Origin: Chiloscyllium plagiosum
Taxonomy: Eukaryota
Direction: 5' to 3'
Assembly (NCBI RefSeq): GCF_004010195.1
Contig: NC_057752.1
Coordinates: forward strand, 98,956 to 162,955
Length of the DNA: 64,000 nt
Positions 1 to 64,000 of the stretch are shown here, in pieces. Positions within the stretch are counted from its first letter, which is position 1, and each line of letters starts with the position of its first letter. Made by a program: the position numbers and the translations under genes. The notes beneath the pieces are model-generated. The model was not told where the DNA came from and did no database searches. It saw only the letters and a program-made list of their open reading frames with translations.

Positions 1-240
1 CTCCAGCCGATCACCCTCACCTTAACCTCCTTCCACCTATCGCATTTCCAACGCCCCTCCCCCAAGTCCCTCCTCCCTACCTTTTATCTTAGCCCACTTG
101 GCACACTTTCCTCATTCCTGAAGGGCTCATGCCCGAAACGTCGATTCTCCTGCTCCTTGGATGCTGCCTGACCTGCTGCGCTTTTCCAGCAACACATTTT
201 CAGCTCTGATCTCTAGCATCTGCAGTCCTCACTTTCTCCT
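1..240 (+). mobile_element. PLE 3' terminal repeat (partial)
   Basis: Near-identical to the arms at 45.5 and 46.7 kb; the hammerhead core has a 3-nt deletion (CCTGAAGGG). Confidence 0.8.
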
Positions 241-8997: not shown

Positions 8998-9220
8998 TAT
9001 GGTGCTGGAAAAGCACAGCCAGTCAGGCAGCATCCAATGACCAGCAGAATCGATGTTTCGAGCGTAAGCTCTTCATCAGGAATGAGCTCATTCTTGACGA
9101 AGGGCTTATGCCTGTAACGTCAATGCTCCTGCTCCTCAGACGCTGCCTGACCGACTATGCTTTTCCAGCACCATACTCTTCAATTCATCTCCAGCATCAG
9201 CAGTCCTCACTTTCTGCTAT
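8998..9220. mobile_element. Fold-back PLE terminal-repeat insertion (89-bp arms, no spacer)
   Basis: 8998-9086 is the diverged reverse complement of 9087-9175; centre AATGAG|CTCATT. Confidence 0.85.
9048..9083 (-). ncRNA. Minimal hammerhead motif (family A, compensated stem II)
   Basis: Minus strand CTGATGA A GAGC-TTAC-GCTC GAAA CA TC GATT. Confidence 0.6.
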
Positions 9221-9636: not shown

Positions 9637-9846
9637 CTCCTCCCTGACCTATCACCTTCATCCCCTCCCCCACTCACCCATTGTACTCTATGCTACTTTC
9701 TCCCCACCCCCACCCTCCTCTAGCTTATCTCTCCACGCTTCAGGCTCACTGCCTTTATTCCTGATGAAGGGCTTTTGCCCGAAACGTCGATTTCGAAGCT
9801 CCTTGGATGCTGCCTGAACTGCTGTGCTCTTCCAGCACCACTAATC
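9637..9846 (+). mobile_element. Young PLE terminal-repeat insertion with 13-bp TSD
   Basis: Flanked by CAGAGAACAGACT at 9624-9636 and 9847-9859; contains an intact hammerhead core. Confidence 0.85.
9757..9792 (+). ncRNA. Minimal type-I hammerhead ribozyme motif (PLE family A)
   Basis: ATTC CTGATGA A GGGC-TTTT-GCCC GAAA CG TC GATT: intact core, stem II and palindromic ACGT in place of stem III. Confidence 0.75.
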
Positions 9847-16854: not shown

Positions 16855-17649
16855 CTGAAACAAAATAATCACAAGGGTAATTAATCTAAAACAGATTAAA
16901 GGGTCATTTTTAGTTACTGGAGAATTGCAAGACCTCCAAAAGTGAACTATGTCTCTCAAAGAAGATTGAGTACATTGGGACATTCTGTAATACCAGACTA
17001 TTAATATATTTCTGCTTGCTTTATTCTTCTTTCCAGAAATTATATAATCATAAATTGTATATCTACTGTACTGTAGCAATTTCATGTCACAAAGAATATG
17101 CAAATAGTTTAACTTCCCCTATCATTATGCTCATCCAAATGTAAAACATGAACAAGTAACCAGGAAATAATAGGAGTCAAATAAGATGATCTGATACAGC
17201 ATTGGCCACACCGTAAGATTTGAGTGTTGCAAATGGGAAATCCAGGTCTTGTGTGTAACTTTATAATAGCATTCGCATAAACCACAGTAAGACTGCATTA
17301 TCAGAACCAAATCAATTCTAAGATACTTCATTCCCTCACGCAATTCCAACATTCGGTATCAAATTTAAGAAGAGATTGAACATATCTCTTCACGGCCCTG
17401 CACGTTTGGGTACAAACAAGTTTTTCCACTGTGACAGACTACAGCTTCATCCACAATTCTGCAGCTGTATTTCTGATCTAACAGGTCAAGGAGAGGTGAG
17501 GGTAATGTTATCAACTTTTCTTGATCACAAGCAGGGAATTCACAAAAGTGTACTCTCATATTTCCTAATTATGGGTTACATAACAATGGAGACTAAGAGT
17601 AAATTAGTGCCAGGCTGTTCTTTAAGAATAAGGCACATGGTTGAAAATA

Positions 17650-17863
17650 GGAGAAAGTGAGGACTGCAGATGCTGGAGATCAGAGTTGAGAGTGTGGTGC
17701 TGGAAAAGCACAGCAGATCGGGCAGCATCCAAGGAACAGCAGAATCGACATTTTGGGCACAAGCTTCCCGATTTCTGATGAAGGGCTTATGCCCGAAACG
17801 TTGATCCTCCTGCTTCTTAGATGCTGCCTGACCTGCTGTGCTTTTCCAGCACCACACTCTTGA
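17650..17863. mobile_element. Fold-back PLE terminal-repeat insertion with TSD
   Basis: Inverted arms; ATGGTTGAAAATA at 17637-17649 and 17867-17879. Confidence 0.88.
17771..17806 (+). ncRNA. Minimal hammerhead motif (family A)
   Basis: CTGATGA A GGGC-TTAT-GCCC GAAA CG TT GA. Confidence 0.65.
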
Positions 17864-18440
17864 CATATGGTTGAAAATACCCAAAAAGGAATGGTAAGCA
17901 CAATTAGAATAAGAAATCAATGTATGCTGTTCAACATTACCTCAATTCATGATCTATCAGGTAATACCAGTGACTAACACTTAGAGGGACAACAAAGAAT
18001 TTAGTGCATGTTGTTGGTTAAGAAAGTCATGCAAGTAAGTCAATTTGAGAATTATTCATTATATGTGACGGTCTCCGATGTTACTATCTAAATTGAGGAG
18101 ACTGGTATCGCCTGTAAATAGATAAAACACGAGAAATAGAAGCAAATGTAGGAGAGAGGAGTCAAATGATTAGTGTCAAATCGCACTAGTGGCATCCACT
18201 TAGAGAAATAAAGAATATTATCAATGAAAGGAATGGGACTTTAGTTGGAAGTTATTAACATGAGGGATTGCTGAGAAGTTAACATAAGGGAAGTGAGCAT
18301 CCAAAGTTAAATGTGGTGGAAAAATAGCAATGCATTGAATGTACTTTTGCTGTTAAAAACATCTAATTGGTTTGAGAAAACTTGCATTCGTGTGCTTCAG
18401 TGCGCATTTTACAAGTGTCCAGCGATAAACTTTCAGTTAC

Positions 18441-19789: not shown

Positions 19790-20057
19790 CTGATTGAGAG
19801 ATGATGGCCAGTCTTGATGTGTATGTAGGAATAAATCTCAGGAACAGAGGATCCACGTGAACCTGCAACGGGCTGATTGCCCGCATCATACGGAGATCAT
19901 ACACCATCAAGAATCTGTCACATGACAAGCCATTCATTCGATTTGAAAAGCCACATGTTACCAATAGGTTTCCATGTACATCAAAATCAGAGAGGCTTCC
20001 AGAGTAAGCATCAAATTCATGCTCCATTTTAAAACTTCTCAAATCTCGGAGGGATAC
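19790..20057 (-). CDS. PAN2: PAN2 coding exon 5
   Basis: VSLRDLRSFKMEHEFDAYSGSLSDFDVHGNLL...RFIPTYTSRLAIISQS(G); acceptor TGTCTTTTAG, donor CAG|GTACAA; 268 nt. Confidence 0.96.
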
Positions 20058-22993: not shown

Positions 22994-23099
22994 CAGCTCA
23001 CGTCTGATTTAGTTCAGCAGAACTTCCTGAACAACTCAATATTCGTAGGTAATCCCCACGCTACTGATTGCCGGATCCAAACTAAAATTTGGACTTAGG

Positions 23100-23887: not shown

Positions 23888-24032
23888 CTCATGTGGACAG
23901 AGGGCTCTGAAATTAATTACTAACAAAGGCCACTGAAACATATAGCTTCAACAAGTTGAATTTATTAATGGAGTGAAAAGGGATTGCGGGATATACCGAA
24001 ATGATGGGAATAATGTGTGTTTGGCCTAGCAT

Positions 24033-27000
24033 CATAGAACATTACAGCGCAGTACAGGCCCTCCTCCTCCCCTCCCCTCCCCTCCATCCTCCACCACCCC
24101 CTCCATGTTGTGTTGACATGTGAAACCAATCTGAAGCCCATCTAACTCTCACTATTCAATTTTCATCCACATGTTTATCCAATGACCATTTAAATGCCCT
24201 TAAAGTTGGCAAGTCTACTACTGTTGCAGACAGTTCGTTCTCCACCCTTACTACTGAGTAAAGAAACTACCTCTGACATGTGTCCTACATCTATCATCCC
24301 TCAATTTAAAGCTATGTCCCTTCGTGCTAGCCATCACCATCTGAGGAAATTGGCTCTCAATGTCCAACCTATCGAAACCTCTGATCAACTTGTATTTGTC
24401 TATTAAGTCGCCGCTCAATCTTCTTCTCCGTAATGAAGACAGCTTCAAGTCCCTCAGGCTTTCCTAGTAAGACCTTCCCTTCATACCAGGCAACATCCTG
24501 GTAAATCTCTTCTGCACCCTTTCCAATGTTTCCACACACTTCCTATAACACGGCCACCAGACCTGTACACAATACTCCAAGTGTGGCAGCACCAGAGTTT
24601 TGTACAGCTGCAACATGACCTCGTGGCTCCGAAACTCAATTCCTCTGCCAATAAAGGCTAACACACCATACACCTTCTTAACAACACTATCAACCAGGGC
24701 GGCAACTTTCAGGGATCTATGTACATGGACACAGAGATCTCTCTGTTCATCCACACTACCAAGAATCTTACCATTAGCCCAGTACTCTGCATTCCTGTTA
24801 CTCCGTCCAAAGTGAATCACCTCACAGTTCCCCGCATTTAACTTCATTTGCCACCTCTCGGCCCATCTCTGTAGCTTATCTTTGTCCCTCTGCAATCTGC
24901 AACATCCTTCCACACTGTCCACAACTCCACCGACTTTAGTGTCATCCGCAAATTTACTAAACCATCTTCTATGCCCTCATCCAGGTCATTTATAAAAATG
25001 ACAAACAGCAATGGCCCCAAAAAAGATCCTTGTGGTAAACGACTAGTAAATGAACTCCAGGATGAACATTTCCCATCAACCACCACACTCTGCCTTCTTA
25101 CAACTAGCCAATTACATATCCAAACTGCTAAATTGCCCTTAATCCTATGCCTCTATTTTCTGCAATAACCTACCATGGGGAACCTTATCAAACACTTGAC
25201 TGAAATCTGTATACACCACATCAACTGCTTTATCCTAATCCACCTGTTTGGTCACCTTCTCAAAAGAACTCAATAAGGTTAGTGAGGCACGACCTACCCT
25301 TCACAAAGCTATGTTGACTATCCCTAATCAAATTATTCCTCTCTCTAGATGATTATAAATCCTATACTTATAACCCTTTTCCAACACTTTACCCACAATC
25401 AAAGTAAAGCTCACTGGTCTATAATTACCAGGGTTGTCTCTATTCCCTTTCTTGAACAAGGGAACATTTGCTATCCTCCAGTCTTCTAACACTATTCCTG
25501 TAGACAATGGTGACAAAGATCAAAGCCAAAGGCTCTGCAAACTGCTCCTTAGCATCCCAGAGAATCCTAGGATAAATACCATCCAGCTCAGGGGACTTAT
25601 CTATTTTCACACTTTCCAGAATTGCTCACACTACCTCCTATGAACCTCAATCCTGTCTAGTTTAGTAGTTTGTATCTCAGTATTCTCCTCGACAGCATTG
25701 TCTTTTTTCATGTGAATACTGACGGAAAATATTCATTTAGCACCTCTCCTATCTTCTCGGACTCCATACACAATTTTTCACTACTGTCCTTGACTGGCCC
25801 TCATCTTGCCCTAGTCATTCTTTTATTCCTGATATACCTATAGAAAGCTTTCGGGTTTTCTTGATCCTACCTGCCAACGACTTCTCATGTTCCCTCCTGG
25901 CTCTTCTTCGCTGTTTCTTTGGGCTCTCCCTGGCAAAGTTGTAACTCTCAAGTGCCCTAACTGAGCCTTTACATCTCATCTTTACATGACCCTCCTTCTT
26001 CTTCTTGACAAGAAATTCAAGTTCTTTAGTAAACCACGGTTCCCTCACTTAACCACTTCCTCCCTGCCTGACCGGTACATACTTAACAAGGACATGCAGT
26101 AGCTGTTCCTTGAATAAGCTCCACATTTCAATTGTGCCCATCCCCTGCAGTTTCCTTCCCCAACCCATGCATCCTAAATCTCACTTAATTACATCATAAT
26201 TGCCTTTCCCCCAGCTATAACTCTTGCCCTGCGGTACATACCTGGCCCTTTCCATCACTAAAGTAACTGTAACCAAATTATAATCACTATCACCAAAGTG
26301 CTCACTTACCTCCAAATCTGGCCTGGTTCATTACCCAGTACCAAATCCAACGTGGCCTCACTTCTTGTTGGCTTGTCTATATACTGTATCAGGAAACTAT
26401 CCTGCACACATTGGACAAAATCTGACCCATCTAAAGTATTCGAACTATAGTATTTCCAGTCAATATTTGCAAAGTTAAAGACCCCCATAACAACTACCCT
26501 GTCAGCTTCACTCCTATTCAGAATCACCTTTCTACATCTCTGGAACTATTTGGAGGCCTATAGAAAACTCCCAACAGGGTGACCTTTCCTTTCCTCTTTC
26601 TAACCTCAGTAGACAGGTCATCATCAGACGTCCTTTCTGCCACCGTAATACTGTCCTTGACTAACAATGCCACACCTCCCCCTCTTTTACCACCTTCCTT
26701 GTTCTTACTGAAACATCGAAACCCAGGAACCTGCAACAACCATTCCTCTCTCTCCTCTATCCATGTCTCCAAAATGGCCACAACATTGAAGTCCCAGGTA
26801 CCAGATGGCCCTGGCGTTGAAGCAGACACACTTCAAACCACATTCCTGCCCGCCAGTACACTCTTGCGACCTTGAAACCTTACTTATGACCTCGCTACTC
26901 TCAACTTCCTATACACTGGAGCTACAATTCAGGTTTCCATCCCCCGCTAAATTATTTTAAACCCTCCCGAAGAGCATTAGCAAATATTCCCCCCAGGATA

Positions 27001-40362: not shown

Positions 40363-41724
40363 TAAAAAGTCTGGTAATTTGCAGGTTGGCATGACTAGAA
40401 AGGTGCCAGGAAAATTTCTTATCCCTTCAAAGAAGAAAACCTGTCAACCTTACGTGGTCCATGCTACTTGGGACGCCAGTCTCACACTACCTGGTTGGCT
40501 CTCAATATGACAGTTTTTTAAATTCACTTATGGGACATAGACATCATTCCTGATTAAGAGCTTTTGCCCAAAACATCGATTTTCCTGCTCCTTGGATGTT
40601 GCCTGACCTGCTGTGCTTTTCCAGCACCACTCAAATATTGACTGTAATCTCCAGCATCTGCAGTACCCGCTTTTGCCATGGACATCACTGTCTGGCCAGC
40701 AGTTTATTGCCTGTCCCTGGTTGCCACTTGAGAAGGTGATGGTGAGCTGCCACCTTGAACCGCTGCAGTCCATCTGCTGTAGGTAGATTCTTAGAAAAGG
40801 AATTCCAGGATTTTGACCAAGTGACACTGAAGGAACGGAAATATATTTCCAAGTCAGGATGGTGAGTGGCTTGGAATTAGAGGAAAGCAATAAATTTGGC
40901 CACACCAGCATCAGTCATGTGCTAAAAACCTTTAAGTGTTACTATTATGGATGAACTTATTATTTTGTTGTACTTTTAGATATTAGTTGATGTGTGAAAT
41001 GCATTACACATGTTAGGTTTCATATCTCCTCCAGAAATCCTGTTTATTAAAAGTAAATAATCCATAAATGGAGACTCACCAATGGGGGATAAAGAGGAAC
41101 TGGCTCATTTGAAGGTAAACCTCCCCTTCCAATGTTGGTGTAAAAAAACTAAAATAAAATAACATTGACTAGAATTAGTTGGATTTCCCATGATTAATTT
41201 AGAATAAAAAGAAAAAATGGCTTTTTACTCCAGGTGTAGCTCCTCTCTGGTTTGATAAGAATGTATACACAAGAAGTCCAAATTCTGTTCCCTTGGTACC
41301 AACTCTCCCCCTCTCCTTGATAACAGTTTGAGAGGAAGTCAAGATGTTCACAGCCTTCATGTCACATTTGACCCCAAGATGAGCTTCCAACTTCATACTC
41401 ACACAGTCACCAAAATTGCCTTTTTCCATCTCTTGACATGCCCAATTTTGCCCCTTTCTCAGCTCTCATGCTGAATCAGTCATCTATGCCTTTCTTATCT
41501 CTAGACTTGACTATTCTAAAGCTCTCTTAGCTGGTCTCCTACATTCTATCCCCCCTTATACCTCAGCTAATCAGAAATTCTATTGCCTATGTCTTAAGTC
41601 ATATTAAATGAGAGGAAAAGAACAATAGAGGAACAGACATGTAGACAATTCATTGAAGTATACAAATAATAATAATAATAGGGTAATTATGGGATCTCAA
41701 CTTCCCAACATTAATTGGAATAGA

Positions 41725-43000
41725 CATAGGGAAGATAGGGGTGAGGGCTGAGGTGCAGGAAATGAGTAGGACCCAGCTGAGGGCGCTATCAATTATGGTT
41801 CTGGGGAATACTTGGTTGAAGAAGAAGGTGGATATTTCAAGGAGAAAGTGAGGACTGCAGATGCTGGAGATCAGAGCTGAAAATGTGTTGCTGGAAAAGC
41901 GCAGCAGGTCAGACAGCATCCAAGGAGCAGGAGAATCGACGTTTCGGGCATAAGCCCTTCTTATTTCAAGGCCCCTTGTCAAAGTTGGCATCATCAAATC
42001 AGGTGCAACAGAGACAGAGGAACTGGAGAATGGTAGCAGGGTGTGAGAATGTATAGTTAAGGTAACTGTGGGTGTGGGTGAGTTTGTAGTGGATGTTGGT
42101 GGCCAGCCTATCCCCAGAAATGGAAATAGAGATGTCAAGGAAAGGAAGGGAGGAGTCAGAGATGAACCAGATGAAGGTGAGAGTGGGGTGGAAATTGGAA
42201 GCAAAATTGTGGAATTTTTCAAATTCTGGATGAGAGAGGAAACAACACCAATGATGTCATTGATGTACCAGAGAAAGAGTTGTGGGTGAGGACTAGAGCA
42301 GGATTAGAATAAGGAATGTTCCACATACCCCACAAAGATACAGGTATATCTGGGGCCCATGTGAGTACCTGTGGCGATCCCTTGGACCTGAAGAAAATGG
42401 GAGCAGTTAAAGGAGAACATGTTCAAAATGAGGACAAGCTCAGTCAGGTGGAGGAGGGTGGTGGTGGACAGGGACAGTTCAGGCCTTTTCTCTAAGAAGA
42501 AGCAGAGAGCCCTGAGACCATGCTGATGAGACCGCGTAAAGTGATTGCACGTCCATAATGAAGAAGATGTGGCAGGACCCTGTGAACTGGGATTTCTGAA
42601 ACTGACAGAAAACATTAGAAGAATTGTGGATGTAATTGGAAAGGGACTGGACAAGCATAGAAAAAAATTGAGTCGAAGTTGGATGAGATGAGTTCTGGGA
42701 GGCAGAAGCAGGCAGAAACGATGGGTCTGTCCAGGCAGTCCTGTAGGTAGAAGAAAGTAGAAGCGGACTTTGCAGGGTTGGGCGAGTATGAGCTTGGAGG
42801 CAGTTAGTAGGGGGAGATCACCAAATGAAATGAAATTAATGACTATTGTGGTCACAATGGTCTTGTGTTCCTTGGTGGGGTCATGGTCCAGGGGGAGATA
42901 TCTGAGAGCTGGCACTCAGTCTCCACAATGGAGAGGTCAGTCTGCCAGACAACAGCCCCACCCTTGTCGACTGGCTTAATTATAAAGTCAGCATTGGATC
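41725..43000 (-). mobile_element. Penelope-like element reverse transcriptase remnant
   Basis: YLPLDHDPT..RFY..LTELVLILNMFSFNCSHFLQVQGIATGTHMGPRY..VEHSLF, then LFLWYINDIIG (YIDD motif), typical of PLE RT. A younger PLE end is nested at ~41840-41965 between ATTTCAAGG repeats. Confidence 0.88.
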
Positions 43001-43212
43001 TGAGAGTCTGAGCCTGAGGCAGTCACTGAGGAATGTGATGTAGTTGTGGAAAGAAGTTTTGGTAAATACCTTGCCAAACACTTGGGAGCGACAATAAAAG
43101 TAAAGACTGCGAACAAGAAAAAAGACGAGAACAGAAATTCTGTTGGAGATAGGAGCAGAACTTCTTCAAGGTGAGCATACCTGGAAGAGATGTGGCAGTG
43201 AGTTAAACACGA

Positions 43213-43855
43213 AGCAAAAAAACCAAAGAACTGCAGACACTGGAAACAAAATCAGAAATTGCTGGGAAAACTCAGCTTTTCTGGGCAGCATCAGTGGAGA
43301 GAAAGCAGTTAATGTTTTGGGTCAAGTGACCCTTGTTTAGAATTGATTGTAGCTAGGAAAAGGTTGATATATATATATTAGAAAAGGGATGGGAGAGGGG
43401 GAGCTGAGCCTTGCTAGAGCATTGTAGCAAGCCCAAGACAGAGATGTTGGCCAGGAAACACAGTGGTGGAGCAAGCTTAGCACAAGCTGGAAGAACAACA
43501 CCTCATATTCTGCTTGGGAACTCCGCAAACTTCTGAATTCAATATCAAGTTCAATAATTTTAGGGACTGAGCACCTCCTATCTCCTTACTCCAAACCCCA
43601 TACACCTGGCCCTGTCATCACATGGTTTGCTACCACAAACAACCCATTGTCAGCCCGAACAGTCCCCAGTAGCAGCTATTCATTCTCCCAAGCTCTGTCT
43701 GCCCAACTGTTTTTCTCTCTATTTAGGCCTCATGCCTCCTCTAACCTTTTCCTAGCCACAATCAGTTCTGACAAAGGGTCACTGGACCTGAAACATTTAA
43801 CTTTCTCTTCACAGATACTACCAGACCTGCTGAGTTTTTCCAGCAATTTCTGATG
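43213..43855 (+). mobile_element. Penelope-like 3' fragment with an inverted terminal-repeat copy
   Basis: Plus strand KLEEQHLIFCLGT..FNIKFNNFR (~43485-43565; PLE endonuclease C-terminus) followed by the terminal repeat. An inverted copy of the terminal repeat lies at 43213-43345. Confidence 0.8.
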
Positions 43856-44976: not shown

Positions 44977-45391
44977 TGCTTGCTGAATTGTACTGGCTTC
45001 CAGTCAGACAAGTCTTGATTTTAAAATTCTCCTCCTTGTTTTCAAATCCCCCCATTTCCTCACCTCTCCCTTCTCCCGATCTTTTTAATCTCTTCTTGCC
45101 CCACAATCCTTCAAGATATCTAAGCTGCTCTAATTCTGGCCTCTCAAGCATCTCTGATTTTAATCACTCCACCATTGCTGGCTACTCTTTCAGTTGCCTA
45201 AGCCTTTAGCTCTGGAATACTCTACCTAGATCTCGGCCTCCTCTCTTCCTCACTTTCCTCTTATAAGACACTCTTTAAAACCTAGGTTTTTGACCAAACC
45301 TTTGGTCATCCGACCATATTTCATTGTATGGTTCCGTGTTGTATTTTGTTTTATAATGCTCCTTTGAAGCACCTTGGGATGTTTTATTACA

Positions 45392-45596
45392 TGGAAAAGC
45401 GCAGCAGGTCAGGCAGCATCAAAGGAGCAGGAGAATCGACGTTTTGGGCATAAGCCCTTCTTCCTTCTTCAGGAAGAAGGGCTTATGCCCAAAACGTCGA
45501 TACTCCTGCTCCTTTGATGCTGCCTGACCTGCTGCGCTTTTCCAGCAACACACTTTTCAGCTCTGATCTCCAGCATCTGCAGTCCTCACTTTCTCC
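45392..45596. mobile_element. Fold-back PLE terminal-repeat insertion with 14-bp TSD
   Basis: 74-bp arms 45392-45465 and 45471-45544 (1 mismatch); TSD ATGTTTTATTACAT at 45379-45392 and 45597-45610. Confidence 0.92.
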
Positions 45597-46561
45597 ATGT
45601 TTTATTACATTAAAGGCAGTGTATAAATATAAATATCAATAGCCACTTAAAGGGGCGCTGTAACAGGAACAAACGTCAAAGGAATCTTAAAAAATTAAAG
45701 CATATATTATTGTTGTATATGCCCACTTCTGTAATATGAGTTGTGTATTTCAAGGAAATTACAGGCAGAGAGCAAGGGGAAGAGTATGAATGGCTTTGGA
45801 ATACTTATTTAGAAATACAACTTGAATAAAATAATACCACTACAAAGAAGGTGAAATTCTTCCATCATCTAATTTTCATTAAAAAATGTAAACCTGTTCC
45901 AAACTATCCTACTCAATACTATAGTTACAGTGTGGGGTAAACCAGGAGTTCCAGGGTGCTAAAGCCAGTCAGTAAAGCCTGTAAGTGGGTTTTTTTTATG
46001 ATTCAATGCAAACAGGAGAGGAACTTCAGAAATTTTTAGTGAAGGAAGTTCACTGAGTAATGGGACAAAACTATCATAAAGTCAGTACCTGGAAGGCTGA
46101 AGTATAAACACTCCTGGAATCTCACTTTAACAGGTTATAGCTTCAGGGGCTAGGCTGTTGTCAGAATAAATTCCAATGGAGGAAGTACATCATGCTTTGT
46201 AGAAGAGCATGTAGCACTATGCCAGCCCAGGACAGGTACTCTAAATGAAAAGCAAAGTTGAGAAGCAATTCATGCTTTGACACATGCTTCTTCAAAAAGC
46301 ACTGACATGCAGGCACACGCTAGTATCACAAACCATTGTCCATGCAAACCATCACCTCATCACCCAAAATTTAATTCAAATGTTTGTCACATAGTTAAAG
46401 GGCAAGATTTTCCCTGTTAGACTAGAATCTGTATTCCTATTCCTTCTGATAGGATTAATTAATTACCTCAAAGTAAAGGAACTTCAAAGGGAGTAGCAAC
46501 CGCGAGTGAGTTTTACATCCAATTTGAAAGGGAGAAGAGTAAGTCTAACACTAACATTTTA

Positions 46562-46780
46562 AGAGCTGAAAATGTGTTGCTGGAAAAGCGCAGCAGGTCA
46601 GGCAGCATCCAAGGAGCAGGAGAATTGATGTTTCGGGCATAAGCCCTTCTTCAGCCCTTCTTCGGGCTTATGCCCGAAACGTCGATTCTCCTGCTCCTTG
46701 GATGCTGCCTGACCTGCTGCGCTTTTCCAGCAACACATTTTCAGCTCTGATCTCCAGCATCTGTAGTCCTCACTTTCTCC
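46562..46780. mobile_element. Fold-back PLE terminal-repeat insertion with 15-bp TSD
   Basis: 85-bp arms 46562-46646 and 46664-46748 (2 CpG-type mismatches); TSD CACTAA(C/T)ATTTTAAG at 46549-46563 and 46780-46794. Confidence 0.92.
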
Positions 46781-47176
46781 ACTAATATTTTAAGGGAAAC
46801 TAAGTCAAGGCAACAATGTGGGCATAAAAGCTGATGTGAACTGGGACACTAAGTTAGGAGAAAGCTCAATAAAGAAACGACGGTAAACATTCAAGAGAAT
46901 ATTTCAGGATACTCAGAATAAGTATATTCCTACTATAGAGAAAAGTGCCAAGGGGAGGATCCACCATCTGTGGTTAACTAAAGAAATTAAGGAAATCATC
47001 ACACTTAAGGAAAATGCTTAAAATTGCAACAATGGCATGTCAGATTATAGATCAGTACATAAAGAATGGCAGAGAATTATTAAAACGTTAATCAGGAAAA
47101 AGTAATTACAATATAAGAGGAAAATAGCTAGAAATGTAAAAGATGGGTAACAAGAGCTGATATAGGTATTTAAAAA

Positions 47177-48588: not shown

Positions 48589-50128
48589 TAAAAGATTACT
48601 AAGCACGTGGTGTAGGGTGTAACATACTAGCATGGATAGAAGATTAACTGACTGGCAGAAAACACAGAGTATGCATAAATGGGTCTTTTTCTGATTGGCA
48701 GGAAGTGATGAATGTGGTCCCATAGAGGTCTGTGCTGAGGCATCAACGTTTTACAATCTATATTAATTACTTAGATGAGGAGAGTGAAGCATGGCAGCTA
48801 AACCTGCAGATGGCACAAAAATTGGTAGTAAAGCATGTTGTGGAGAAGACATAAGGAGGTGGTAGATGGATATAGTTAGGTTGAGTGAGTGCGGAAACAT
48901 CTGGCAGATGGAGTATAGTGTGGATAATGTGAAATTGTTCACTCTGACAGGAAGAATGAAAATGCAGAGTAGATTTAAATGGAAAGTGTCTGTAGAATTC
49001 TGAGGTGCACAGGGATCGAGATGTTCTAGTGCATGAGTCAAAAAAGTTAGTATGCAGGTACATCAAGTAATTAAGAAGACTAATGGGCTGTTATGACAAG
49101 AAGAATTGAACTTAGAACTCAGATAAATGGGGCATTGCAGCTCAAGTACTGTGTCAATTTTGGTCTCTTGATTTAGAGAAGGATGTAAATGTGTTGGAGG
49201 TGGTTCAGGTAATCATTATTGGCAATAGATGTGAATGCAAAATTCGAAACACAAACAGATCAGTCATCATCTTGTTTCATGGCAGAGCAGCTTTGAGGAG
49301 CTGAATGGCCAATATCTGTTCCTGATTTACATGCATGTATGTAGATATTTATGACTCCATAAAGTAAAGTTTAATAATTACCTACAGATCTTCCTGCAGA
49401 CTAGGTCTCTGGGCACTCTAATCAGTAAACAATTAAAATATTATTGGGCTCCTAAGGACTCAGATTTGTGTGTACTGATGAGGCTCCAGTCTGCCTCAAC
49501 AAAAGGGCTCAGTTAAAGGTGGCAGCAATGGAAACAGTTAAGTAAGTTTTCAGCCATGATTATGACTATTCAGCTATCTGATTATTATGAAGTGAGGGTG
49601 AGTTAAAATCACCCCATTAATTTTAGTTAACACAGCAGAATGATTCATTGAAAACATGCATACATAATGATACAGAAGAATGTGGTAGAACAATGATAAA
49701 CTGTACTTCTGAATGTATAATGTATATTTGTGCCAAGGATATTCCTTGCTTTGATAAATTCTTGATCTAAGCCTGATCATGAGATCAAAGCAATGAGTTG
49801 AGACTAGACATGGCTGTACAGGAAAAGGAAAAAAATCACAGCGGAGAGCAAAGCACTTTGGAGCAAGAGTAGGCCATTCGGCCCTTCAAGCCTTCTCCAC
49901 CACTCAATAAGACCATGGCTGACCTGATTGTGGTCTCAAATCCACTTTTCTGTCTGTCCCCCACAACCCTTGATTCCCAACTTGATCAGCAATCTATCTA
50001 ACTCAGCCTTGAACAAATTCAATAACTACAGCCTCCACTGCTTTCTGGAAAAGAGAATTCCACAAACCATTATTAACCCTCTGAGAAACAAAAAATCCTC
50101 ATCTCCATCTTGAAAGGATGACCTATTA

Positions 50129-50477
50129 TGTTGTGGTTCTGTTCGCCAAGCTGGAAATTTTTGTTGCAAACGTTTCGTCCCCTGTCTAGGTGACATCTTC
50201 AGTGCTTGGGAGCCTCCTGTGAAGCGCTTCTGTGGTGTTTCCTCCGGCATTTATAGTGGCCTGTCCATGCTGCTTCCGGTTGTCCACTATAAATGCCGGA
50301 GGGACAGGCCACTATAAATGCCGGAGGAAACACCACAGAAGCGCTTCACAGGAGGCTCCCAAGCACTGAGGATGTCACCTAGACAGGGGACGAAATGTTT
50401 GCAACAAAAATTTCCAGCTCAGCAAACAGAACCACAACAACGAGCACCCGAGTTACAAATCTTCACCCAAACTTTGG
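50129..50477. mobile_element. Fold-back insertion of a second PLE family with 11-bp TSD
   Basis: 138-bp arms 50129-50266 and 50302-50439; TSD TGACCTATTAT at 50119-50129 and 50478-50488. Confidence 0.9.
50166..50205 (-). ncRNA. Minimal hammerhead motif (family B); mirror copy on + at ~50363-50402
   Basis: Minus strand GCA CTGAAGA T GTCACCT-AGAC-AGGGGAC GAAA CG TT TGC; stem I GCA/TGC. Confidence 0.75.
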
Positions 50478-52204
50478 TGACCTATTATTTTTAAATTGTG
50501 TCCTCTCATTCTAGTCTCCTTCAGTATCCACCCTACCATGTCACCTCAGGATTCTATATGTTTCAATAAGATCAGTACTCATTCTTCTAAACTCCAATAG
50601 GTAAAGGTTTAACCTATTAAATCTTACTTCATAAGATAAGTCCTTCATTCTAGGAATTAGTGAAATGACCTCCTACCCTTTTCAAATAAAGGGGGACACT
50701 GGTGAAATGATGGTGGATGTACTTATAGAGCTACATGCATCAAAATATCTCAAAACACATTGCTTGCAGTTTATTTGAAGTTCAATGACTACTTTGTGAG
50801 GAAATGTGACAGCCACTCTTCACTTGAAATATCCTGTAAGTAGCAATGATAAATTTATAGGGACTTCATTAATACATGCAAATCGGAGTACTCTGGTGTG
50901 CAATTATTTTTGGCAAAGGTTTGTGATCTTTTTTGTCCAGACATTTCCATGTTGCTAAGCCTCACTATGGTGGAAAATCTGACTACCATATCACGAATGA
51001 ATGTGTCATTTGTGACCACATGGTCCCTATAGAATTGTATCCTATTAATGCCTTTGGAGGAGAGAAAATTTGTATTAAAATGTAAAACAAATTCTTCTGG
51101 AGAAATAAAGAAAAAGCTGAATATGTGACATAATTTTTATTTTCTGATTATTTCTTCTGGAAATGTTTATCTATAGCACTAGCACCCTTCACTGCCTCAC
51201 CAAACAACACATTCTTCACTTAATAGTCCTGGCAGTAAACATAAGCAGGTGAAGATGGAGAAATTATATGTGCAAATTTGATTCTGTCCTTCTCTGGCAT
51301 CTACATACACATTTTCCAGCAGTAGTCACTGGAACAGAGTCCTGGTTGGTTTTTGCCATCCCTAGGTTAGGTCCATAAAGTCAAACACAGTTCCATAACA
51401 CGGGACAGTAAATCAGAGTTAATGATGAAACTTGTTTTGCTCACTGCTGAAGTTTTCTTTGTAATTCTGTTCTTCAGGTAGATGTTAAAGATCCCACGCC
51501 ACTATTTGAAGAAAAGCAGTATTTTGGTCAGCATTCATCTCACAATTAGCTCTTCCTACAAAAGTGGATTCATGGGTCAATCACATAATTTGTTGTGTTT
51601 GGTATCTTGGCAGCTGCACTTTCCTACATAACACTCATAGCACTTCAAAATAATTCAGTGCATTAGATGTTTCTGAGAAGTGAAATAAGATGCTATTTAC
51701 TTACAAATTATTTTGGCAATGAAGGAAGATGAGCTGACCTATCTTACAAGCATTTATGCCCTGTGGCAATTTGCAAAAATAAGTACAGCTAAATACGATC
51801 CAGTTCTTGGAAATGCGTCACAAACAGAAGTAGCCCCCAGAAAAAATTTTCATGACATAACTTGTCTCTCATCTGATGGAAAATTACTGGCAATGATCAC
51901 TCTGAACACTTAACTATGACATTTGGAAAAGACACGGAAATAATTGAGACACCTGTGTCTATCAGTGAATTGTGCAACCACTTGGGAATCTGTGATGCAA
52001 ACTTGGAAGGACTTGGTGAGAATTGCTTATTGCTTTGTTACATTTTAACTTTGATTTCTCTTTTTGTAATATTTTGCTGCTGCCCCAATCTACCCCTTCT
52101 CTTCTGAAGGTGCCTGATCATTTGCTGCAATTTAGGTTTACTGGCACCAACTATATCTTGTACTCCACCATCACCTTTTCCCCTGTCATTATTCCTTATG
52201 TTTG

Positions 52205-52605: not shown

Positions 52606-54139
52606 TTTTCCATCATCAAGATTAGGCTTGAATAAGCATTATGGTTATGCAATTAAAATACCTTTCAAAAGAATTTTAAAATTATTTACCCACTTCCCTT
52701 TTAAAAGTTACTATAGATTCTGCTTTCTTCACTGTTTCTGGATGAGCTTCCCACATTCTCAAAATATTAAGCATCAAAAACAAATCCCCTTTCTTCTCCC
52801 TTTTTTTTGCTGACAATCTTTAGCCTATGTTCTCTCATAACTGACTCACCAACCAATGGGGATAATTTGTTTTTCCCATTTACCTTATTAAAGGCCCTTA
52901 CAACTTCGATTGCATATTTGTCATAAACCTTTGAACCTAAGTCTGATGTGATAATTGTTCAAACCCAAAGCAGCAGCAGTCTAAACACAGCCGAGGGTCA
53001 CTTGTAAACCCTTTCCTTCACATATAGGCATTTGGGTGATCTCAGTCAGAATATTCCTACACACAAGGCTCATTTATTAATTGTGTGTACTCTGATACAT
53101 GTAGATTATCAGGGAATTCCACTGTTCAGTAATGCTTCACAATATTTGAAGTAATTAATCACGATTTCTGTTCCTGGTCATTATTTAGCTACCCTGGCTG
53201 TGTGGACCTGATTGGGAGGGTGTGACCTCATGTTCTGACTAGATTATTAGTTCAAGCCTATAATAACAACAAAATATTGCAGATGCTGGAAATCTGAAAT
53301 AACACAGGAAGTGCTGGAGAAATTTAGCAGGTCTGGCAGCATCTGTGGAGAGAGAAACAGAGTTAACATCTGAAGTCCAACATGACTTTTCTTCAGAACT
53401 TCAGCCTACTAGCCCAGTAAGGTAATCACTACATTACCATTCTCGTGACTGAAATTCTAACATAAGTTAAAAGGGGTTTGGAAATGTATTTGTAAAACCA
53501 TATAAATGATGGGGGAATTGGGATCAGAGTAGACAGATTCATCTGAAGAACTAGCACTGGAATAAGTGTGAAGGGGGCAAATTACTTCTCTATAATTCCC
53601 AGCTCCAAATTTCTACCTCCAGTTTAATAGTTTCTCTGCATAACAAAATCAAAGATGAGCATTTCTTCATGTATAATCGAACAAATCAGTCCTAGCTTTT
53701 CCTTTGAGAGAAATTGGTTCAAATCCCACCATGGCAAATGGAGAAATTTGAATTCAATAAAAAATGTGGAACAGAGAGCTGACCTAATGGTGACCATGTA
53801 ACAACTATCAATTGTCATAAAAAAACATCTGGGTCCGCTAATGTCCTATAGGGAAGGAAGTCTGCTGTCCTCACCTGGTCTGACTTACATGTGACTCTAG
53901 ATCCACTGAAATGCAGTTGACTCTTAACTGCCCTGTAGGCAACTCAGAACAGCCGAGCCAACAACATCCAGATGACGTGAATAAATATTTTGAAAAATTA
54001 ACACGTGTGGAAAATTATTCACTACCAGAGATACCAGAAACTTAACTTTCAATCTAGGGTAATAACTTCCCAGATCCCAACTGTTGGTTATGTGACACAA
54101 CCTTCAAATATAAATGTCCACGAGGCTTCATCTGGAGGC

Positions 54140-54179
54140 TCACTGATGATGTTACCTAGTATGGTGATGAAACATCTGA
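54140..54179 (+). ncRNA. Minimal hammerhead motif (family B relative, in PLE fragment ~54050-54256)
   Basis: TCA CTGATGA T GTTACC-TAGTAT-GGTGAT GAAA CA TC TGA; stem I TCA/TGA covaries with GCA/TGC of the 50.2-kb copy. Confidence 0.65.
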
Positions 54180-55654
54180 AAAACAAACCTTCCAGCTCAG
54201 TGAGCAAACCTACATCCAGAACCTCAACCTGAGCTACAAATCTTCTCAAAACTCGCTATGTCCTAATTGGGTTATGCCAAGTTCAATGCCCAGTTAGCAG
54301 CACTGAGTTCTACCTGCAAAGCACTAAGCTTAAAGGGAGACGGCAGCCATGATGATGCCTGCCTGCTGCTATCTTGCAGAGAACAGGAGGCAACACACTG
54401 GAGAGCAAGTAGTTTCACCATACACAAAATTAGCCAAATGGCCAACTGAGCAGCATTGCAAGAAAACAAAATCCCTTATGGTAAAAATGTTTCATCACAA
54501 AAGAAAACTTAATTGGTCCCAACACTGAAACTGACAGCTATACACCAACATGCAATAGACTGTTCAACTTTAGAAAAATATAAGAAAAATATAGACTGTT
54601 CAATTTTACCAATCTGCAATTCAAAAATCATCTTCCAGCCCATTAACAAGCTCACCATGGAGCTTCTATGCCATTAGTTGGAGGCAAGTGCATTCCCAAC
54701 TTCTCCTACCTCCATCATTTTCAAAATTCCAACATGTCCAGAAGTGTTGGAATTTTGCCATGCCATCCAGGTGTGCTTTTCAAAGTGCACTCACATCAAT
54801 CTTACCTGATGGACAATTGAGAATCCTGGCCCAATGCTTTCAATGTGTTAGGGTATCTTCTTGCAAAACTGTGGTATGTGAGGAGCAAACTTGGATTTCC
54901 ATGATAAGTGTAGAAATTTGTGGGATTATCCTGGGCTGTCAAATTGTGACAAATTTCAAATGACGAGAAGCCTGATCCTCAGTTCATAGAGCTGAGCTAA
55001 TTCCTTATATTTTTATCATTTGTTCATGAGATGTGAGCATCATTGGCAAGTTCAGCATTTATTGCACACCACTAATTGCCCTTGAGAAGTTGGCGAGCCC
55101 CTTCTTTAACCACTGGAGTCCGCATGGTGTATGCGGACATTGTGGGTACAGTGTAGCATGGGCTAAAACATCACATTAATTATGTCATTTGGAAAATTGT
55201 GCATTTAGTCTTTACGTCAGAGAAAATAACTTTGTTGAGAGTTTAGTACAAAGGGGAATGAGCTCATTCATCAGCATGGCCTCTTTATCGTATTATTGAA
55301 ATTTATTTCCAGCTAACTCAGTGTTAGCAACCACTTCCCCAAAAACTGGCCATGAATATTTGGTCAGATACAGCCCTTGTCTACTTTCTTATGTCCTTAA
55401 GTGTGTGGGAACCAGGAACCAACATATGCAATTTAAACTTCAATTTTTCTGTGATTAAAGAAAAGTGTGCAGAATCAAGAGGAATTTCCAGCTTATCAGG
55501 AAAATTATATTACTCTCCCCAATTAGCACTATTGGAAAGTGAATTGTATTGACACACATGTCATTTAAGGACAGAACTGAGCTCAGTTGTAGTTAGTTCT
55601 TTGTTTCAGATGAGATATTAAAATAAAGTCCTGTCTTCCCCCCCTCAGGTAATA

Positions 55655-60900: not shown

Positions 60901-61114
60901 TGCCATAGTGTTAAGGGTTTAGATGGAGAGGAATTTGTTAAGTATGTACAAGAAAATTTTCTGATTCAGTATGTGAATGTACCTATGAGAGAAGGTGCAA
61001 AACTTGACCTACTCTTGGGAAATAAGGCAGGGCAGGTGACTGAGGTGTCAGTGGGGGAGCACTTTGGGGCCAGCAACCATAATTCTATTAGTTTTAAAAT
61101 AGTGATGAACAGGG

Positions 61115-61232
61115 TTAAAAATCACACAACACCAGGTTATAGTCCAACAGGTTTAATTGGAAGCACTAGCTTTCGGAGCGATGCTCCTTCATCAGGTGAT
61201 TGTGACAGTCCAACACCGGCATCTCCAAATCA
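61115..61232 (-). mobile_element. Third PLE-family short insertion with internal inversion, inside CR1 ORF2
   Basis: TSD TGATG(A/G)ACAGGG at 61103-61114 and 61233-61244; same family as 13295-13420, 40085-40362 and 58817-58941. Confidence 0.85.
61164..61198 (-). ncRNA. Minimal hammerhead motif (family C), intact
   Basis: Minus strand CAC CTGATGA A GGAGC-ATC-GCTCC GAAA GC TA GTG; stem I CAC/GTG, palindromic AGCT. Decayed copies at 13298-13332 (+), ~40238-40272 (+) and 58868-58902 (-). Confidence 0.75.
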
Positions 61233-63423
61233 TGATGGACAGGGATAGACAGGGTCTAAACGTTAAAGTTCTAAATTGGAGGAAGGCTAATTTTGACAGT
61301 ATTGCGCAAGAACTTTAAAAGCTGATTGGGGGCAGATGTTCGAATGTCTAGGGACAGCTGGAAAATGGGAAGCCTTCAAAAAATGAGATAACGAGAGTCC
61401 AGAGAAAGTATATTCCTGTTAGGGTGAAAGGAAAGGCTGATAGGTGTAGGGAATGCTGAATGACCAAAGAAATTGAGGGTTTGGTTCAGAAAAAGAAGGA
61501 AGCATATGTCAGGCATAGACAGGATAGATCGAGTGAATCCTTCGAAGAGTATAAAGGCAGTAGGAGTGCACTTAAGAGGGAAGTCAGGAGGGCAAAAAGG
61601 GGAAATGAGGCAGCTTTGGCAAATAGAGTTAAGGAGAATCCAAAGGGATTTTATAAATAAATTAAGGACAAAAGGGTAACTAGGGAGAGAATAGGGCTCC
61701 TCAAAGATCAGCAAAGTGGCCTTTGTGTGGAGATGGGGGAGATACTAAACAAGTACTTTGCATCAGTGTTTACTGTGGAGAAAGACAGGGAAGATATAGA
61801 ATGTGGGGAAATAGATGATGACATCTTGAAAAATGTTAATATTTCAGAGGAGGAGGTGCTGGATGTCTTGAAATGCATAAAAGTGGATGAATCCCCAGGA
61901 CCTGATCACATGTACCCTAGAACTCTGTGGGAAGCTGAGCCCCTTGATGAGATATTTGTATCACTGATAGTCATAGGTGAGGTGCCGGAAGACTGGAGGT
62001 TGGCTAACGTGGTGCCACTATTTAAGAAAGGTGGTAAGGATAAGCCAGGGAACTATAGACAAGTGAGCCTGATGTTGGTGGTGGGCAAGTTGTTGGAGGG
62101 AATCCTGAGGGACAGGATGTACATGTATTTGGAAGCACAAGGACTGATTAGGGATAATCACCATAGCTTTGTGCATGGGAAATCATATCTCACAAACTTG
62201 ATTGAGTTTTTTGAAGAAGTAAGAAGGAAGATTGATGAGGGCAGAGCAGTGGACGTGATCTATATGGATTTCAGTAAGGCATTAGACAAGATTCCCCATG
62301 GGAGACTGGTTAGCAAGGTTAGATCTCATGGAATACTGGGAGAACTAGCCATTTGGACACAGAACTGGCTCGAAGGTAGAAGACAGAGGGTGGTGGTGGA
62401 GGGTTGTTTTTCAAACTGGATGCCTGTGACCGGTGGTGTGCCACAAGGATTGATACTAGGTCCAATACTTTTCGTCATTTATATAAATGATTTGGATGTG
62501 AACATAGGATGTATAGTTAGTAAATTTGCAGATGACACCAACATTGGAGGTGTCGTTCACAGCGAAGAAGGTTATCTCAGAGTACAATGGGATCTTGATC
62601 TGATGGGCCAATGGGCTGAGAAGTGGCAGATGGAGTTTAATTTAGATAAATGTGAGGTGCTGCATTTTGGAAAAGCAAATCAGAGCAGGACGTATACACG
62701 TAATGGTAAGGTCCTAGGGAGTGTTGCTGAATAAAGAGACCTTGGAGTGCAGGTTCATAGTTCATTGAAAGTAGAGTCTCAGGTAGATAGGATAGTGAAG
62801 AAGGCGTTTGGCATGCTTTCCTTTATTGGTATTGAGTACAGGAGTTGGAAGTCATATTGCGGCTGTTCAGGAATTTGGTTAGGCCACTTGTGGAATATTG
62901 TGGAATTATTGTGGAATAGTTCTAGTCTATCCAATTGGAAAGATGTTATGAAACTTGAAATGATTCAGAAAAGATTTACAAGGACGTTGCCAGGGCTGGA
63001 GGATTTGAGCTATAGAGAGAGGCTGAATAGGCTGGGGCTGTTTTCCCTGGAGCATCGGAGGCTCAGGGGTGACCTTATAGAAGTTTATAAAATCATGAGG
63101 GGCATGGATAAGATAAATAGACAATGTCTTTTCCCTGGGGTGATGGAGTCCAGAGATAGAGGGCATAGGTTTAGAGTGAGAGGGGAAAGATATAAAAGGG
63201 ACCTAAGGGGCAACTTTTTCACACAGAGGGTGGTGAATGTCTGAAATGACCTGCCAGAGAAAGTGGTGAAGGCATCTGGATGGGTATATGAATAGGAAGG
63301 GTTTAGAGGGGTATGGGCCAAGTGCTGGCAAATATTAGGTTGGGATATCTGGTTGGCATGGATGAGTTGAACAGAAGGGTCTGTTTCCATGCTGTACATC
63401 TCTATATCTCTCTCTGACTCTAT

Positions 63424-64000
63424 TACACACACACATACACCCCCCCCCCCCCACACTCACACCAACGCACACACCCTCTCACAGGTGCATATTCCATCAC
63501 ACACACAGTTTACCAAGCATACACACATGGTAACACACACTTTCTCATGCGTACTGACACTCATGCACACACTCACTCTCTCTCTTTCTCATGCAGCCAC
63601 GCACACATATAAGTCTCTGGGGTGAATTTGCATTTGCAGAATTATATTTTCAGATACAATCTATTTTGCTCAAAAAGCACACAGTCTGCTGACAGTCAAT
63701 GCAGGCAGTCAATCCATGTAATATTTTATAAATTCCTACTTTGGAAATAGAACAAGTCTGACTCAAGATTGGGCTACAGACAGACTCTAACCACACACCT
63801 TTAATGCATTGTCTGTGCTGAGATGTCTCTTTTTTTAAATAAAACTTTAAGTTATCTCGAGAATGTGACTTAAAAGAAGTTCTGGGATTTACATATTAAT
63901 GAACCAAAACCTTCAACCCATTCTAAAAGATGAAAGACTTTACAGCAATCTACGTTTGTTCAATATATCTCTTCAGTTGCATGACACTGTAATCTTTTGC
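63424..64000 (+). mobile_element. PLE 3' region (CA-rich tract plus terminal repeat), continues past the window
   Basis: 63890-64000 aligns with 40090-40205; CA-rich low-complexity tract at 63424-63610. Confidence 0.7.

What the first reader, a model, noticed from the sequence alone, without database searches (positions are those of the whole stretch)
45379..46794. TSD-flanked fold-back insertions whose inversion junction falls at the hammerhead core
Seen: four independent family-A insertions (8998-9220, 17650-17863, 45392-45596, 46562-46780) are back-to-back inverted duplications of the same terminal repeat. In all four the symmetry centre is within about 10 nt of the CTGAnGA/stem II motif, and three have 13-15-bp TSDs. 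Junctions hold short templated duplications (CTTCTTC twice at ~45457-45470; AGCCCTTCTTC twice at 46642-46663). Known: PLEs often insert with an inverted terminal repeat. Inference: the ribozyme hairpin is a preferred stall or template-switch site in reverse transcription, or these ~200-bp palindromes mobilise as a non-autonomous unit.
Basis: partly seen in the sequence, partly recalled or inferred. Interest (0 to 1): 0.7.

Follow-up and report, generated by a model that had tools for sequence, protein, structure and literature searches.

The report
Penelope fold-backs start at hammerhead edge
These small mirror-image insertions are ordinary leftovers of Penelope-like jumping genes; their centres sit at a hammerhead ribozyme motif because most copies of this repeat, folded or not, begin there, probably because the copied RNA itself begins there.

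Summary
Observation confirmed: four head-to-head family-A insertions, centres within 7 nt of the hammerhead core, three clear TSDs, both templated duplications present. The architecture (inverted 5'-truncated copy, tail on one arm, TSD) is published for Penelope-like elements. The hotspot is real but not specific to inversions. In the window, 7 of 11 single-arm copies also begin at the core. In reads laid on the repeat, depth just upstream is about 15% of depth just downstream. Copies keep the whole ribozyme and stop on its far (5') side, which fits neither a stall at the hairpin nor run-off at the cleavage site. All four junctions differ, so the palindromes are not a mobile unit. Best reading: reverse transcription starts at two internal sites and runs off the RNA 5' end just upstream of the hammerhead; the arms then join by microhomology. 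One extra pattern: the tail-less arm reaches further upstream in 6 of 6 informative pairs (3 clear, 3 uncertain; plus one tie and one pair with two tails), which suggests twin priming on one RNA. The transcription start is not shown. The scan noted the same boundary in other pieces of this genome.

The parts
45379..45392 (.). Left target-site duplication of the 45k insertion (14 bp exact; last base shared with the element)
45393..45475 (-). 45k tail-less inverted arm; reaches 3 nt upstream of the hammerhead core C (45472); holds a 7-nt slippage duplication at 45457-45470
45473..45596 (+). 45k tailed arm, starting at +2 (or +5) of the core; shares a 3-nt GAA microhomology with the other arm; both arms carry the same two variants
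45597..45610 (.). Right target-site duplication of the 45k insertion
46549..46563 (.). Left target-site duplication of the 46k insertion (15 bp, 1 mismatch)
46562..46654 (-). 46k tail-less inverted arm, reaching the core C (46654); core box CTGAAGA present
46653..46663 (.). 11-nt templated duplication of 46642-46652 at the 46k junction
46664..46780 (+). 46k tailed arm, starting at stem II (+8); lacks the CTGA box
46780..46794 (.). Right target-site duplication of the 46k insertion
8998..9220 (.). Older family-A fold-back; both arms start at -7, perfect palindrome at the centre; no convincing TSD
17637..17879 (-). Family-A fold-back with tailed arm on the minus strand (starts in stem II) and tail-less arm on plus (starts about -11, or -4 if part is filler); 13-bp TSD
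40547..40676 (+). Single-arm family-A copy starting at -3 (-6 with microhomology); 11-bp TSD with 1 mismatch, score at the chance maximum
41843..41961 (-). Single-arm young family-A copy starting at +3/+4, 10-bp exact TSD, inserted into an older decayed PLE reading frame
9637..9846 (+). Single-arm tail-less copy starting about -124 (exception to the hotspot); 13-bp exact TSD
1..239 (+). Family-A copy extending at least 117 nt upstream of the core (window edge); used as reference; has a 3-nt deletion in the core
61103..61244 (.). Family-C insertion: inverted tail-less arm running to about -8, then only the tail in forward orientation with about 11 nt missing between them; 12-bp TSD with 1 mismatch. 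Non-overlapping, twin-priming-like form
50119..50488 (.). Family-B fold-back with junction 54-97 nt upstream of the core, including a TATAAAT box and a 19-nt templated duplication; 11-bp exact TSD; exception to the hotspot
41650..43853 (.). Decayed PLE body (DKG motif, RT remnants on minus; endonuclease-end remnant on plus) with related A2 terminal repeats at 43220-43365 (minus) and 43743-43853 (plus)

Best explanation
These are dead-on-arrival insertions of the terminal repeat (pLTR) of an endonuclease-bearing Penelope-like element. The enzyme nicks both target strands about 10-15 bp apart and primes reverse transcription at two internal sites: about 120 nt downstream of the hammerhead core (with tail) and about 70-90 nt downstream (without tail). 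Most cDNAs stop between about 10 nt upstream of the core and stem II. The most likely reason is that the uncleaved template RNA begins there, so RT runs off its 5' end. One cDNA gives a single-arm copy; two give a head-to-head fold-back, sealed with 2-4-nt microhomologies and short primer slips. The tail-less cDNA appears to lead and the tailed one to follow on the same RNA. Shown: architecture, TSDs, two 3'-end classes, 5'-end hotspot, unique junctions. Inferred: RNA 5' end as the cause (about 0.55), a single RNA with leader and follower (about 0.4).
For: Single-arm copies share the boundary: 7 of 11 in families A/A2/A3/C start at -15..+10; 17 of 25 arms overall, 17 of 28 with family B (offsets read by hand). 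In raw reads (X21) depth is 250 at ref 91-99 against 1662 at ref 127-135 (15%); the largest loose-end classes shown in both DNA runs are 'before 119/120' (X1 2331+676, X13 2014+658), and their consensus follows the element for only 6-9 nt upstream of the core C before turning AT-rich (agreement 0.41-0.43). Head-to-tail joints 239/240 to 119/120 also restart at the hammerhead. Two 3'-end classes: depth falls from 2442 to 1510 across ref 190-207, loose ends at 195/196 and 238-240, matching the two RT start sites of Anolis PAc, which nicks and extends both strands and uses uncleaved RNA (PMC11167929). At 45k and 46k each arm holds bases that the other lacks, so neither is a plain copy of the other. 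The tail-less arm reaches further upstream at 45k, 46k, 61k (clear) and 17k, 50k, 43k (uncertain); 9k is a tie. The 45k arms share two variants.
Against: No transcription start was measured; one search listed no place where many molecules begin or end. An initiator-like hexamer lies at -6..-1 in families A and A2, but several copies extend to -7 to -11, upstream of its A, and these bases also form helix I. In D. virilis the start site is about 121 nt upstream of the hammerhead (46 nt plus a 75-nt intron). Family B copies keep a TATAAAT box (0 of 3 arms in the hotspot). No symmetric 119-to-119 opposite-strand joint was among the 15 of 119 joints shown, so the frequency of symmetric fold-backs outside the window was not measured. 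The reference has a 3-nt gap at 119 that pins clips to that place, and diverged upstream sequence of other subfamilies would lower upstream depth. The shared 45k variants could come from gene conversion, and one is a CpG change seen in about 16% of X21 reads. The 9k and 17k arms differ by 14-21%, and one arm of each shares a variant that its partner lacks.
Confidence: 0.55

Rival explanations
1. The folded hammerhead, perhaps with bound element protein, stalls RT or triggers a template switch.
For: All four centres are within 7 nt of the core. At 46k the junction can be read as two slips and a final switch through the self-complementary stem II. The PAc ribozyme is protein-assisted, so a protein footprint is possible.
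Against: RT reads the RNA 3' to 5' and meets helix I 3' strand and stem II first, yet 7 of 8 fold-back arms keep all of stem II and the eighth starts inside its 5' strand. The hammerhead region folds no better than shuffles in family A (z -0.96 and -1.45). Single-arm copies stop at the same place.
Confidence: 0.2
2. The boundary is an RNA-processing site such as a splice acceptor or branch point at the 5' end of helix I, as in D. virilis Penelope.
For: In D. virilis the intron ends at the 5' end of helix I (PMC4209133). Family A2 has a pyrimidine tract, a CTAAC at about -26 and an AG at -4/-3; the 47.8k and 53k copies start at -4 and -3, and the 43k minus arm at -26.
Against: Family A has no AG at that place. 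A spliced template should add a common first exon upstream, but the loose-end consensus in the DNA runs is AT-rich with low agreement.
Confidence: 0.12
3. Two RNAs, paired through the palindromic helix III of their minimal hammerheads and each held by one subunit of a dimeric enzyme, are copied towards each other; the junction marks the dimer interface.
For: Minimal hammerheads act as dimers; PAc is predicted to be a dimer and extends both strands. One arm each of the 9k and 17k copies shares a variant that the partner arm lacks.
Against: It does not explain single-arm copies with the same boundary or why the tail-less arm reaches further. The 61k copy has non-overlapping arms. The arms pass the ACGT palindrome by 15-35 nt. 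Both arms belong to the same subfamily in 4 of 4 cases and share two variants at 45k.
Confidence: 0.12
4. The 200-bp palindromes move as a non-autonomous unit.
For: Similar total length (204-223 bp). Tail-to-tail joints (200-237, 208-240) and a 240-to-119 joint with 87 unlaid letters between (15 and 9 contigs) could be arrays of such units.
Against: Four of four junctions differ, and the short arms end at four different places (ref 188, about 196, about 200, 207). Length similarity follows from fixed starts and a fixed stop.
Confidence: 0.05
5. Ribozyme self-cleavage makes the RNA 5' end from which RT runs off.
For: One arm (6.6k, forward) starts a few bases past the cleavage site.
Against: Cleavage would fall 28 nt downstream of the core C; all 12 family-A arms in the window include sequence upstream of it, and no loose-end class near ref 142 was among the 18 rows shown (818 not shown). 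PAc uses uncleaved RNA.
Confidence: 0.04

Closest known systems
Insertion architecture of endonuclease-bearing Penelope-like elements (Arkhipova et al. 2013, PMC3846280; Craig et al. 2021, PMC8557442)
   Same: Head-to-head inverted 5'-truncated copy, inverted arm shorter by the tail, 30-40-bp tail on one end, TSD, palindromes at the inverted junction (passages).
   Different: Here both arms are only about 80-125 bp, TSDs are 10-15 bp against 8-10 bp in the rotifer, and the 5' ends cluster at the hammerhead; the passages I saw do not describe such a hotspot or the arm asymmetry.
Poseidon of Anolis carolinensis (PAc; Frangieh et al. 2024, PMC11167929)
   Same: Two internal RT start sites downstream of the hammerhead, an AC-rich stretch at the tail-less end, AT-rich targets, both strands extended, uncleaved RNA as template.
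   Different: In PAc the ORF starts at stem II; no open frame starts there in family A. The nearby decayed RT looks Neptune-like rather than Poseidon-like (recalled motifs, not tested). The paper's main text parts I read do not map 5' ends of genomic copies.
[quoted passage not shown]
   Same: Core boxes with almost no helix III; mostly solo motifs from truncated PLEs; pairs on opposite strands 100-700 bp apart in Schistosoma.
   Different: Here the opposite-strand pairs abut and usually only one arm keeps the CTGA box.
L1 twin priming
   Same: Two nicks prime two cDNAs on one RNA, giving an inverted 5' part joined by microhomology; the 61k copy has this non-overlapping form.
   Different: L1 arms do not overlap; most fold-backs here duplicate 70-90 bp, which needs snap-back or strand displacement.
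Non-LTR retrozymes (bioRxiv 10.64898/2026.07.22.740005)
   Same: Non-coding, hammerhead-bearing, pLTR-related.
   Different: Retrozymes are head-to-tail tandem arrays with a hammerhead in each unit; these are dispersed single or head-to-head copies with TSDs.

Membership tests
EN+ Penelope-like element insertion | Minimal type I hammerhead in the terminal repeat | tested here: met
   CTGA[T/A]GA, 4-bp stem II and GAAAC-GUH found by motif scan at 9761, 17775 and, with a G-to-A change, at 9079 and 46654. Rfam gave no hammerhead hit at E<=1; these minimal forms lack helix III.
EN+ Penelope-like element insertion | Inverted 5'-truncated copy at the 5' end, head-to-head | tested here: met
EN+ Penelope-like element insertion | 30-40-bp tail on one end only | tested here: met
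   Short arms end at ref 188-207, long arms at 239-241, a 33-51-bp difference; two 3'-end classes in reads.
EN+ Penelope-like element insertion | Target-site duplication at AT-rich sites | tested here: met
   3 of 4 fold-backs with 13-15 bp.
EN+ Penelope-like element insertion | Linked ORF with PLE-type RT (DKG motif) and C-terminal GIY-YIG endonuclease | tested here: inconclusive
   A decayed ORF at 41650-43853 has a DKG motif and is flanked by the related A2 repeat. Pfam gave no hit for these frames, PDB none below E 0.6, the Atlas gave eukaryotic DUF8422/RT clusters at 0.88-0.90 (a lead). No ORF was found attached to family A itself in this window.
Neptune clade | Zn-finger-like linker between RT and EN; RT phylogeny | not tested
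   The linker is not preserved in the window; the resemblance of RT motifs is recalled.
Non-LTR retrozyme | Head-to-tail tandem units, each with a complete hammerhead | tested here: not met
   No tandem family-A units in the window; a few head-to-tail joints exist elsewhere.
MITE-like palindromic non-autonomous element | Same ends and same centre at many loci | tested here: not met
   4 of 4 junctions and short-arm ends differ.
Active hammerhead ribozyme | Self-cleavage | not testable with these tools
   No assay; both 45k arms have lost the G of GAAA.

The most novel reading that the evidence does not exclude
The fold-backs record the missing steps of the Penelope cycle: one RNA that starts at the 5' edge of an uncleaved hammerhead is primed twice; the tail-less cDNA leads, runs off the cap and folds or pairs back, and the tailed cDNA follows. 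The 'two RT start sites', the one-sided tail, the inverted pLTR and the huge number of solo minimal hammerheads in animal genomes would then be one mechanism, and the hammerhead would mark the transcript start rather than act as a processing site.
Probability: 0.3. Interest if true: 0.6.

Novelty: new variant of a known kind. Interest (0 to 1): 0.33.

Why it matters
How Penelope-like elements make their inverted structures and what their hammerhead does are open questions (stated in PMC8557442 and PMC11167929). A genome with very many short copies gives a large fossil record of 5' ends and junctions. The sharp boundary and the arm asymmetry give simple predictions that can be counted in an assembly and tested in the existing in vitro system. 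The elements themselves are not a new class.

Tried and rejected
No whole genome was held, so the proposed genome-wide breakpoint plot could not be made; one read-laying run stood in for it. Pattern scans: metagenome 0 hits; metagenome 29 hits with a looser pattern, of which 12 matched the window only over 21-25 bases and 17 not at all at E<=1e-4, so chance; viral 0 hits. Rfam: only palindrome-driven miRNA models and weak U6 matches, all below gathering scores. No RNA holder was listed as on record; run X22 laid nothing. Strand bias in X21 was not used, because one expressed locus (188 reads, agreement 0.85) contributes to it. The apparent palindrome at 13258-13295 is not an element arm. The initiator-like hexamer was considered as proof of a start site and set aside: such hexamers are common (212 strict and 1610 loose matches on both strands) and copies extend past it. 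Snap-back of the tailed cDNA alone was rejected for 45k and 46k, because it requires the tailed arm to reach further upstream. Lunse et al. 2017 was not held. Three supplementary files of PMC11167929 held no text with my terms; its Fig. S2 coverage plot, which I could not see, may already show a 5' boundary. Paper searches that did not show a description of the hotspot: (open-licence library only; Arkhipova 2006 and Evgen'ev and Arkhipova 2005 not seen).

Full report
Setting. The window is intron-rich vertebrate DNA with exons of PAN2 on the minus strand (Pfam PAN2_N, E 4e-53) and many decayed retroelements. The repeat content looks like that of a cartilaginous fish (my recall; earlier scan notes say the same). 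No whole genome was held. Positions below are given either on the reference copy window:1-270 ('ref') or as offsets from the first C of the hammerhead core box (C = 0 = ref 118; stem II +8 to +19; cleavage would fall after +27).

Observation. The four fold-backs are real, centred at 9086.5, 17774.5, 45468 and 46655, with arm identities of 79%, 86%, 99% and 98%. They are head-to-head. Three have clear TSDs of 13, 14 and 15 bp, scoring 12-14 where 150 random pseudo-insertions reached at most 8; the 9k copy has only a chance-level 9-bp match. The two junction duplications are present. In each copy one arm runs to ref 239-241 and the other stops at ref 188-207: this is the one-sided tail described for Penelope-like elements (PLEs).

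The hotspot is not about inversion. I listed all hammerhead-bearing terminal repeats that I could find in the window and read each arm's 5' end by hand. Family A, 12 arms: -7, -7 (9k), about -11 and +5 to +10 (17k), -3 and +2/+5 (45k), 0 and +8 (46k), -3 (40.5k single), +3/+4 (41.9k single), and two exceptions, -124 (9.7k) and beyond -117 (window edge). Related families A2/A3, 8 arms: 0/+1, -4, -3, about -15 (four single copies), -2 and about +33 (6.6k), -26 and about -390 (43k). Family C, 5 arms: about -8 (13k), about -8 and tail only (61k), about -35 (58.8k), long (40.2k). So 17 of 25 arms, 12 of 18 insertions and 7 of 11 single-arm copies start between -15 and +10 (P 2e-9, 6e-7 and 2e-4 against uniform over -120..+60; window chosen after the fact; arms of one insertion are not independent). 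Left out of these counts: the three family-B arms (none in the hotspot; 17 of 28 with them) and a piece at 63891-64000 whose hammerhead lies beyond the window. The boundaries of the 13k and 44.7k copies are inferred without a TSD or an upstream reference, and the 53k TSD is imperfect.

Beyond the window. I laid two DNA runs (contigs; organisms A and B) and two RNA runs on window:1-270 at 80% likeness; one RNA run laid nothing. In the raw reads (3773 laid) depth is 250-296 at ref 91-117, 1133 at 118-126, 1662 at 127-135, 2656 at 163-171 and about 1500 over the tail. The largest loose-end classes shown in both DNA runs lie before ref 119/120 (X1 2331 and 676; X13 2014 and 658). The reference has a 3-nt gap there, which pins the clips, but the consensus of the loose letters follows the element for only 6-9 nt upstream of the core C and then becomes AT-rich with agreement near 0.42. 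Head-to-tail joints (239/240 to 119/120) also restart at the hammerhead. Opposite-strand joints shown were 119-160, 119-204, 126-160, 135-204, and tail-to-tail 200-237 and 208-240. No symmetric joint at 119-119 was among the 15 rows shown (104 not shown); I cannot tell whether such joints are filtered, lost from contigs as hairpins, or rarer than the window suggests (4 of 8 family-A insertions). Contig depth is not copy number.

Mechanism. RT reads the RNA from the tail towards the hammerhead. A stall at the fold should leave copies without stem II, and run-off at the cleavage site should leave copies starting at +28. Instead 7 of 8 fold-back arms keep all of stem II and the eighth starts inside it, and the monomer fold is not unusually stable (z -0.96 and -1.45 for two family-A copies). 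The simplest reading is that the template RNA begins just upstream of the core. This agrees with the Anolis element, which starts RT at two internal sites downstream of the hammerhead, extends both target strands and uses uncleaved RNA (PMC11167929; I read parts 1-2 of 4, the main text and start of the methods). It is not shown: no 5' ends of RNA were measured, an initiator-like hexamer at -6..-1 in families A and A2 is passed by several copies, D. virilis Penelope starts about 121 nt upstream of its hammerhead (PMC2377424 passages; PMC4209133 parts 1-2 of 4), and family B keeps a TATA-like box.

How the arms are joined. At 45k the tail-less arm holds bases -3 to +1 that the tailed arm lacks; at 46k it holds 0 to +7. 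The tailed arm holds the tail. So neither arm is a plain copy of the other, and two RNA-templated cDNAs are needed. The tail-less arm reaches further upstream at 45k, 46k and 61k (clear), and at 17k, 50k and 43k (uncertain: diverged, possibly filler, or a different geometry); 9k is a tie and 6.6k has two tails. At 61k the forward piece is only the tail, with about 11 nt missing between the pieces, as in L1 twin priming (recalled); the 119-204 and 135-204 joints look like the same class. The 45k arms share two variants. Together these suggest one RNA primed twice, with the tail-less cDNA leading and running off, then either snapping back or pairing with the following cDNA; sequence alone cannot separate these two. 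Six of six has a one-sided chance of 1 in 64, three of three only 1 in 8, so this is a lead.

Mobile palindrome. Not supported: four different junctions and four different short-arm ends. The tail-to-tail joints and one 240-to-119 joint with 87 unlaid letters are unexplained and could be arrays.

Known and new. The inverted copy, one-sided tail, TSD and junction palindromes are described (PMC3846280 passages; PMC8557442 passages), as are solo and opposite-strand minimal hammerheads. I also saw passages of PMC6765202 and part 1 of 5 plus passages of bioRxiv 10.64898/2026.07.22.740005. Eight searches showed no description of the 5'-end hotspot or of the arm asymmetry, but key older papers and a supplementary figure were not visible. 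Earlier scan notes on other pieces of this genome report the same boundary and the same guess; I had written the guess down before seeing them, and they are not independent evidence.

Verdict. Real, mostly ordinary PLE by-products, with a sharp 5' boundary and a possible arm asymmetry that refine a known but unexplained pathway. Novelty: new variant of a known kind. Interest 0.33; 0.6 if the one-RNA run-off model holds (probability about 0.3).

Noticed in passing
window 6392-6818: An A2-family fold-back with two tailed arms in which about 90-100 bp of the right-hand flank (a CR1-like 3' end, by recall) is also duplicated in inverted form on the left (88 of 99 identical). It looks like a hairpin that was extended through the tail into target DNA.
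   Followed up: partly
window 41650-43853: A decayed PLE whose 5' part runs on the minus strand from a terminal repeat starting 26 nt upstream of its hammerhead, joined head-to-head through a short (TA)n filler to the 3' end of a copy on the plus strand; a young family-A copy has inserted into it at 41843-41961.
   Followed up: partly
window 50119-50488 and 54100-54260: Family-B repeats carry a TATAAAT box about 40-50 nt upstream of the hammerhead core; the 50k junction has a 19-nt templated duplication that includes the box.
   Followed up: partly
window 1-270, reads: A recurrent joint from ref 240 back to ref 119 with 87 unlaid letters (15 contigs in X1, 9 in X13) could be a 209-bp tandem unit (retrozyme-like) or a chain of fold-backs; tail-to-tail joints at 200-237 and 208-240 also occur.
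   Followed up: no
window 1-270, run X21: 188 reads leave the element at ref 238 into one common sequence containing AATAAA (agreement 0.85), suggesting one well-expressed transcript with a copy near its 3' end.
   Followed up: no
window 9060-9079: The minus arm of the 9k copy has a stem II with a change on both sides (GAGC/GCTC for GGGC/GCCC) that keeps pairing; a single case.
   Followed up: no
window 23091-24887: Two CR1-like 3' fragments face each other as a 650-bp inverted pair at 77% identity; probably two independent insertions.
   Followed up: no
window 11201-35805: Exons of the host gene PAN2 on the minus strand (Pfam PAN2_N for 19743-20057); the 17k fold-back lies between its exons and could form a double-stranded hairpin in the pre-mRNA.
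   Followed up: no
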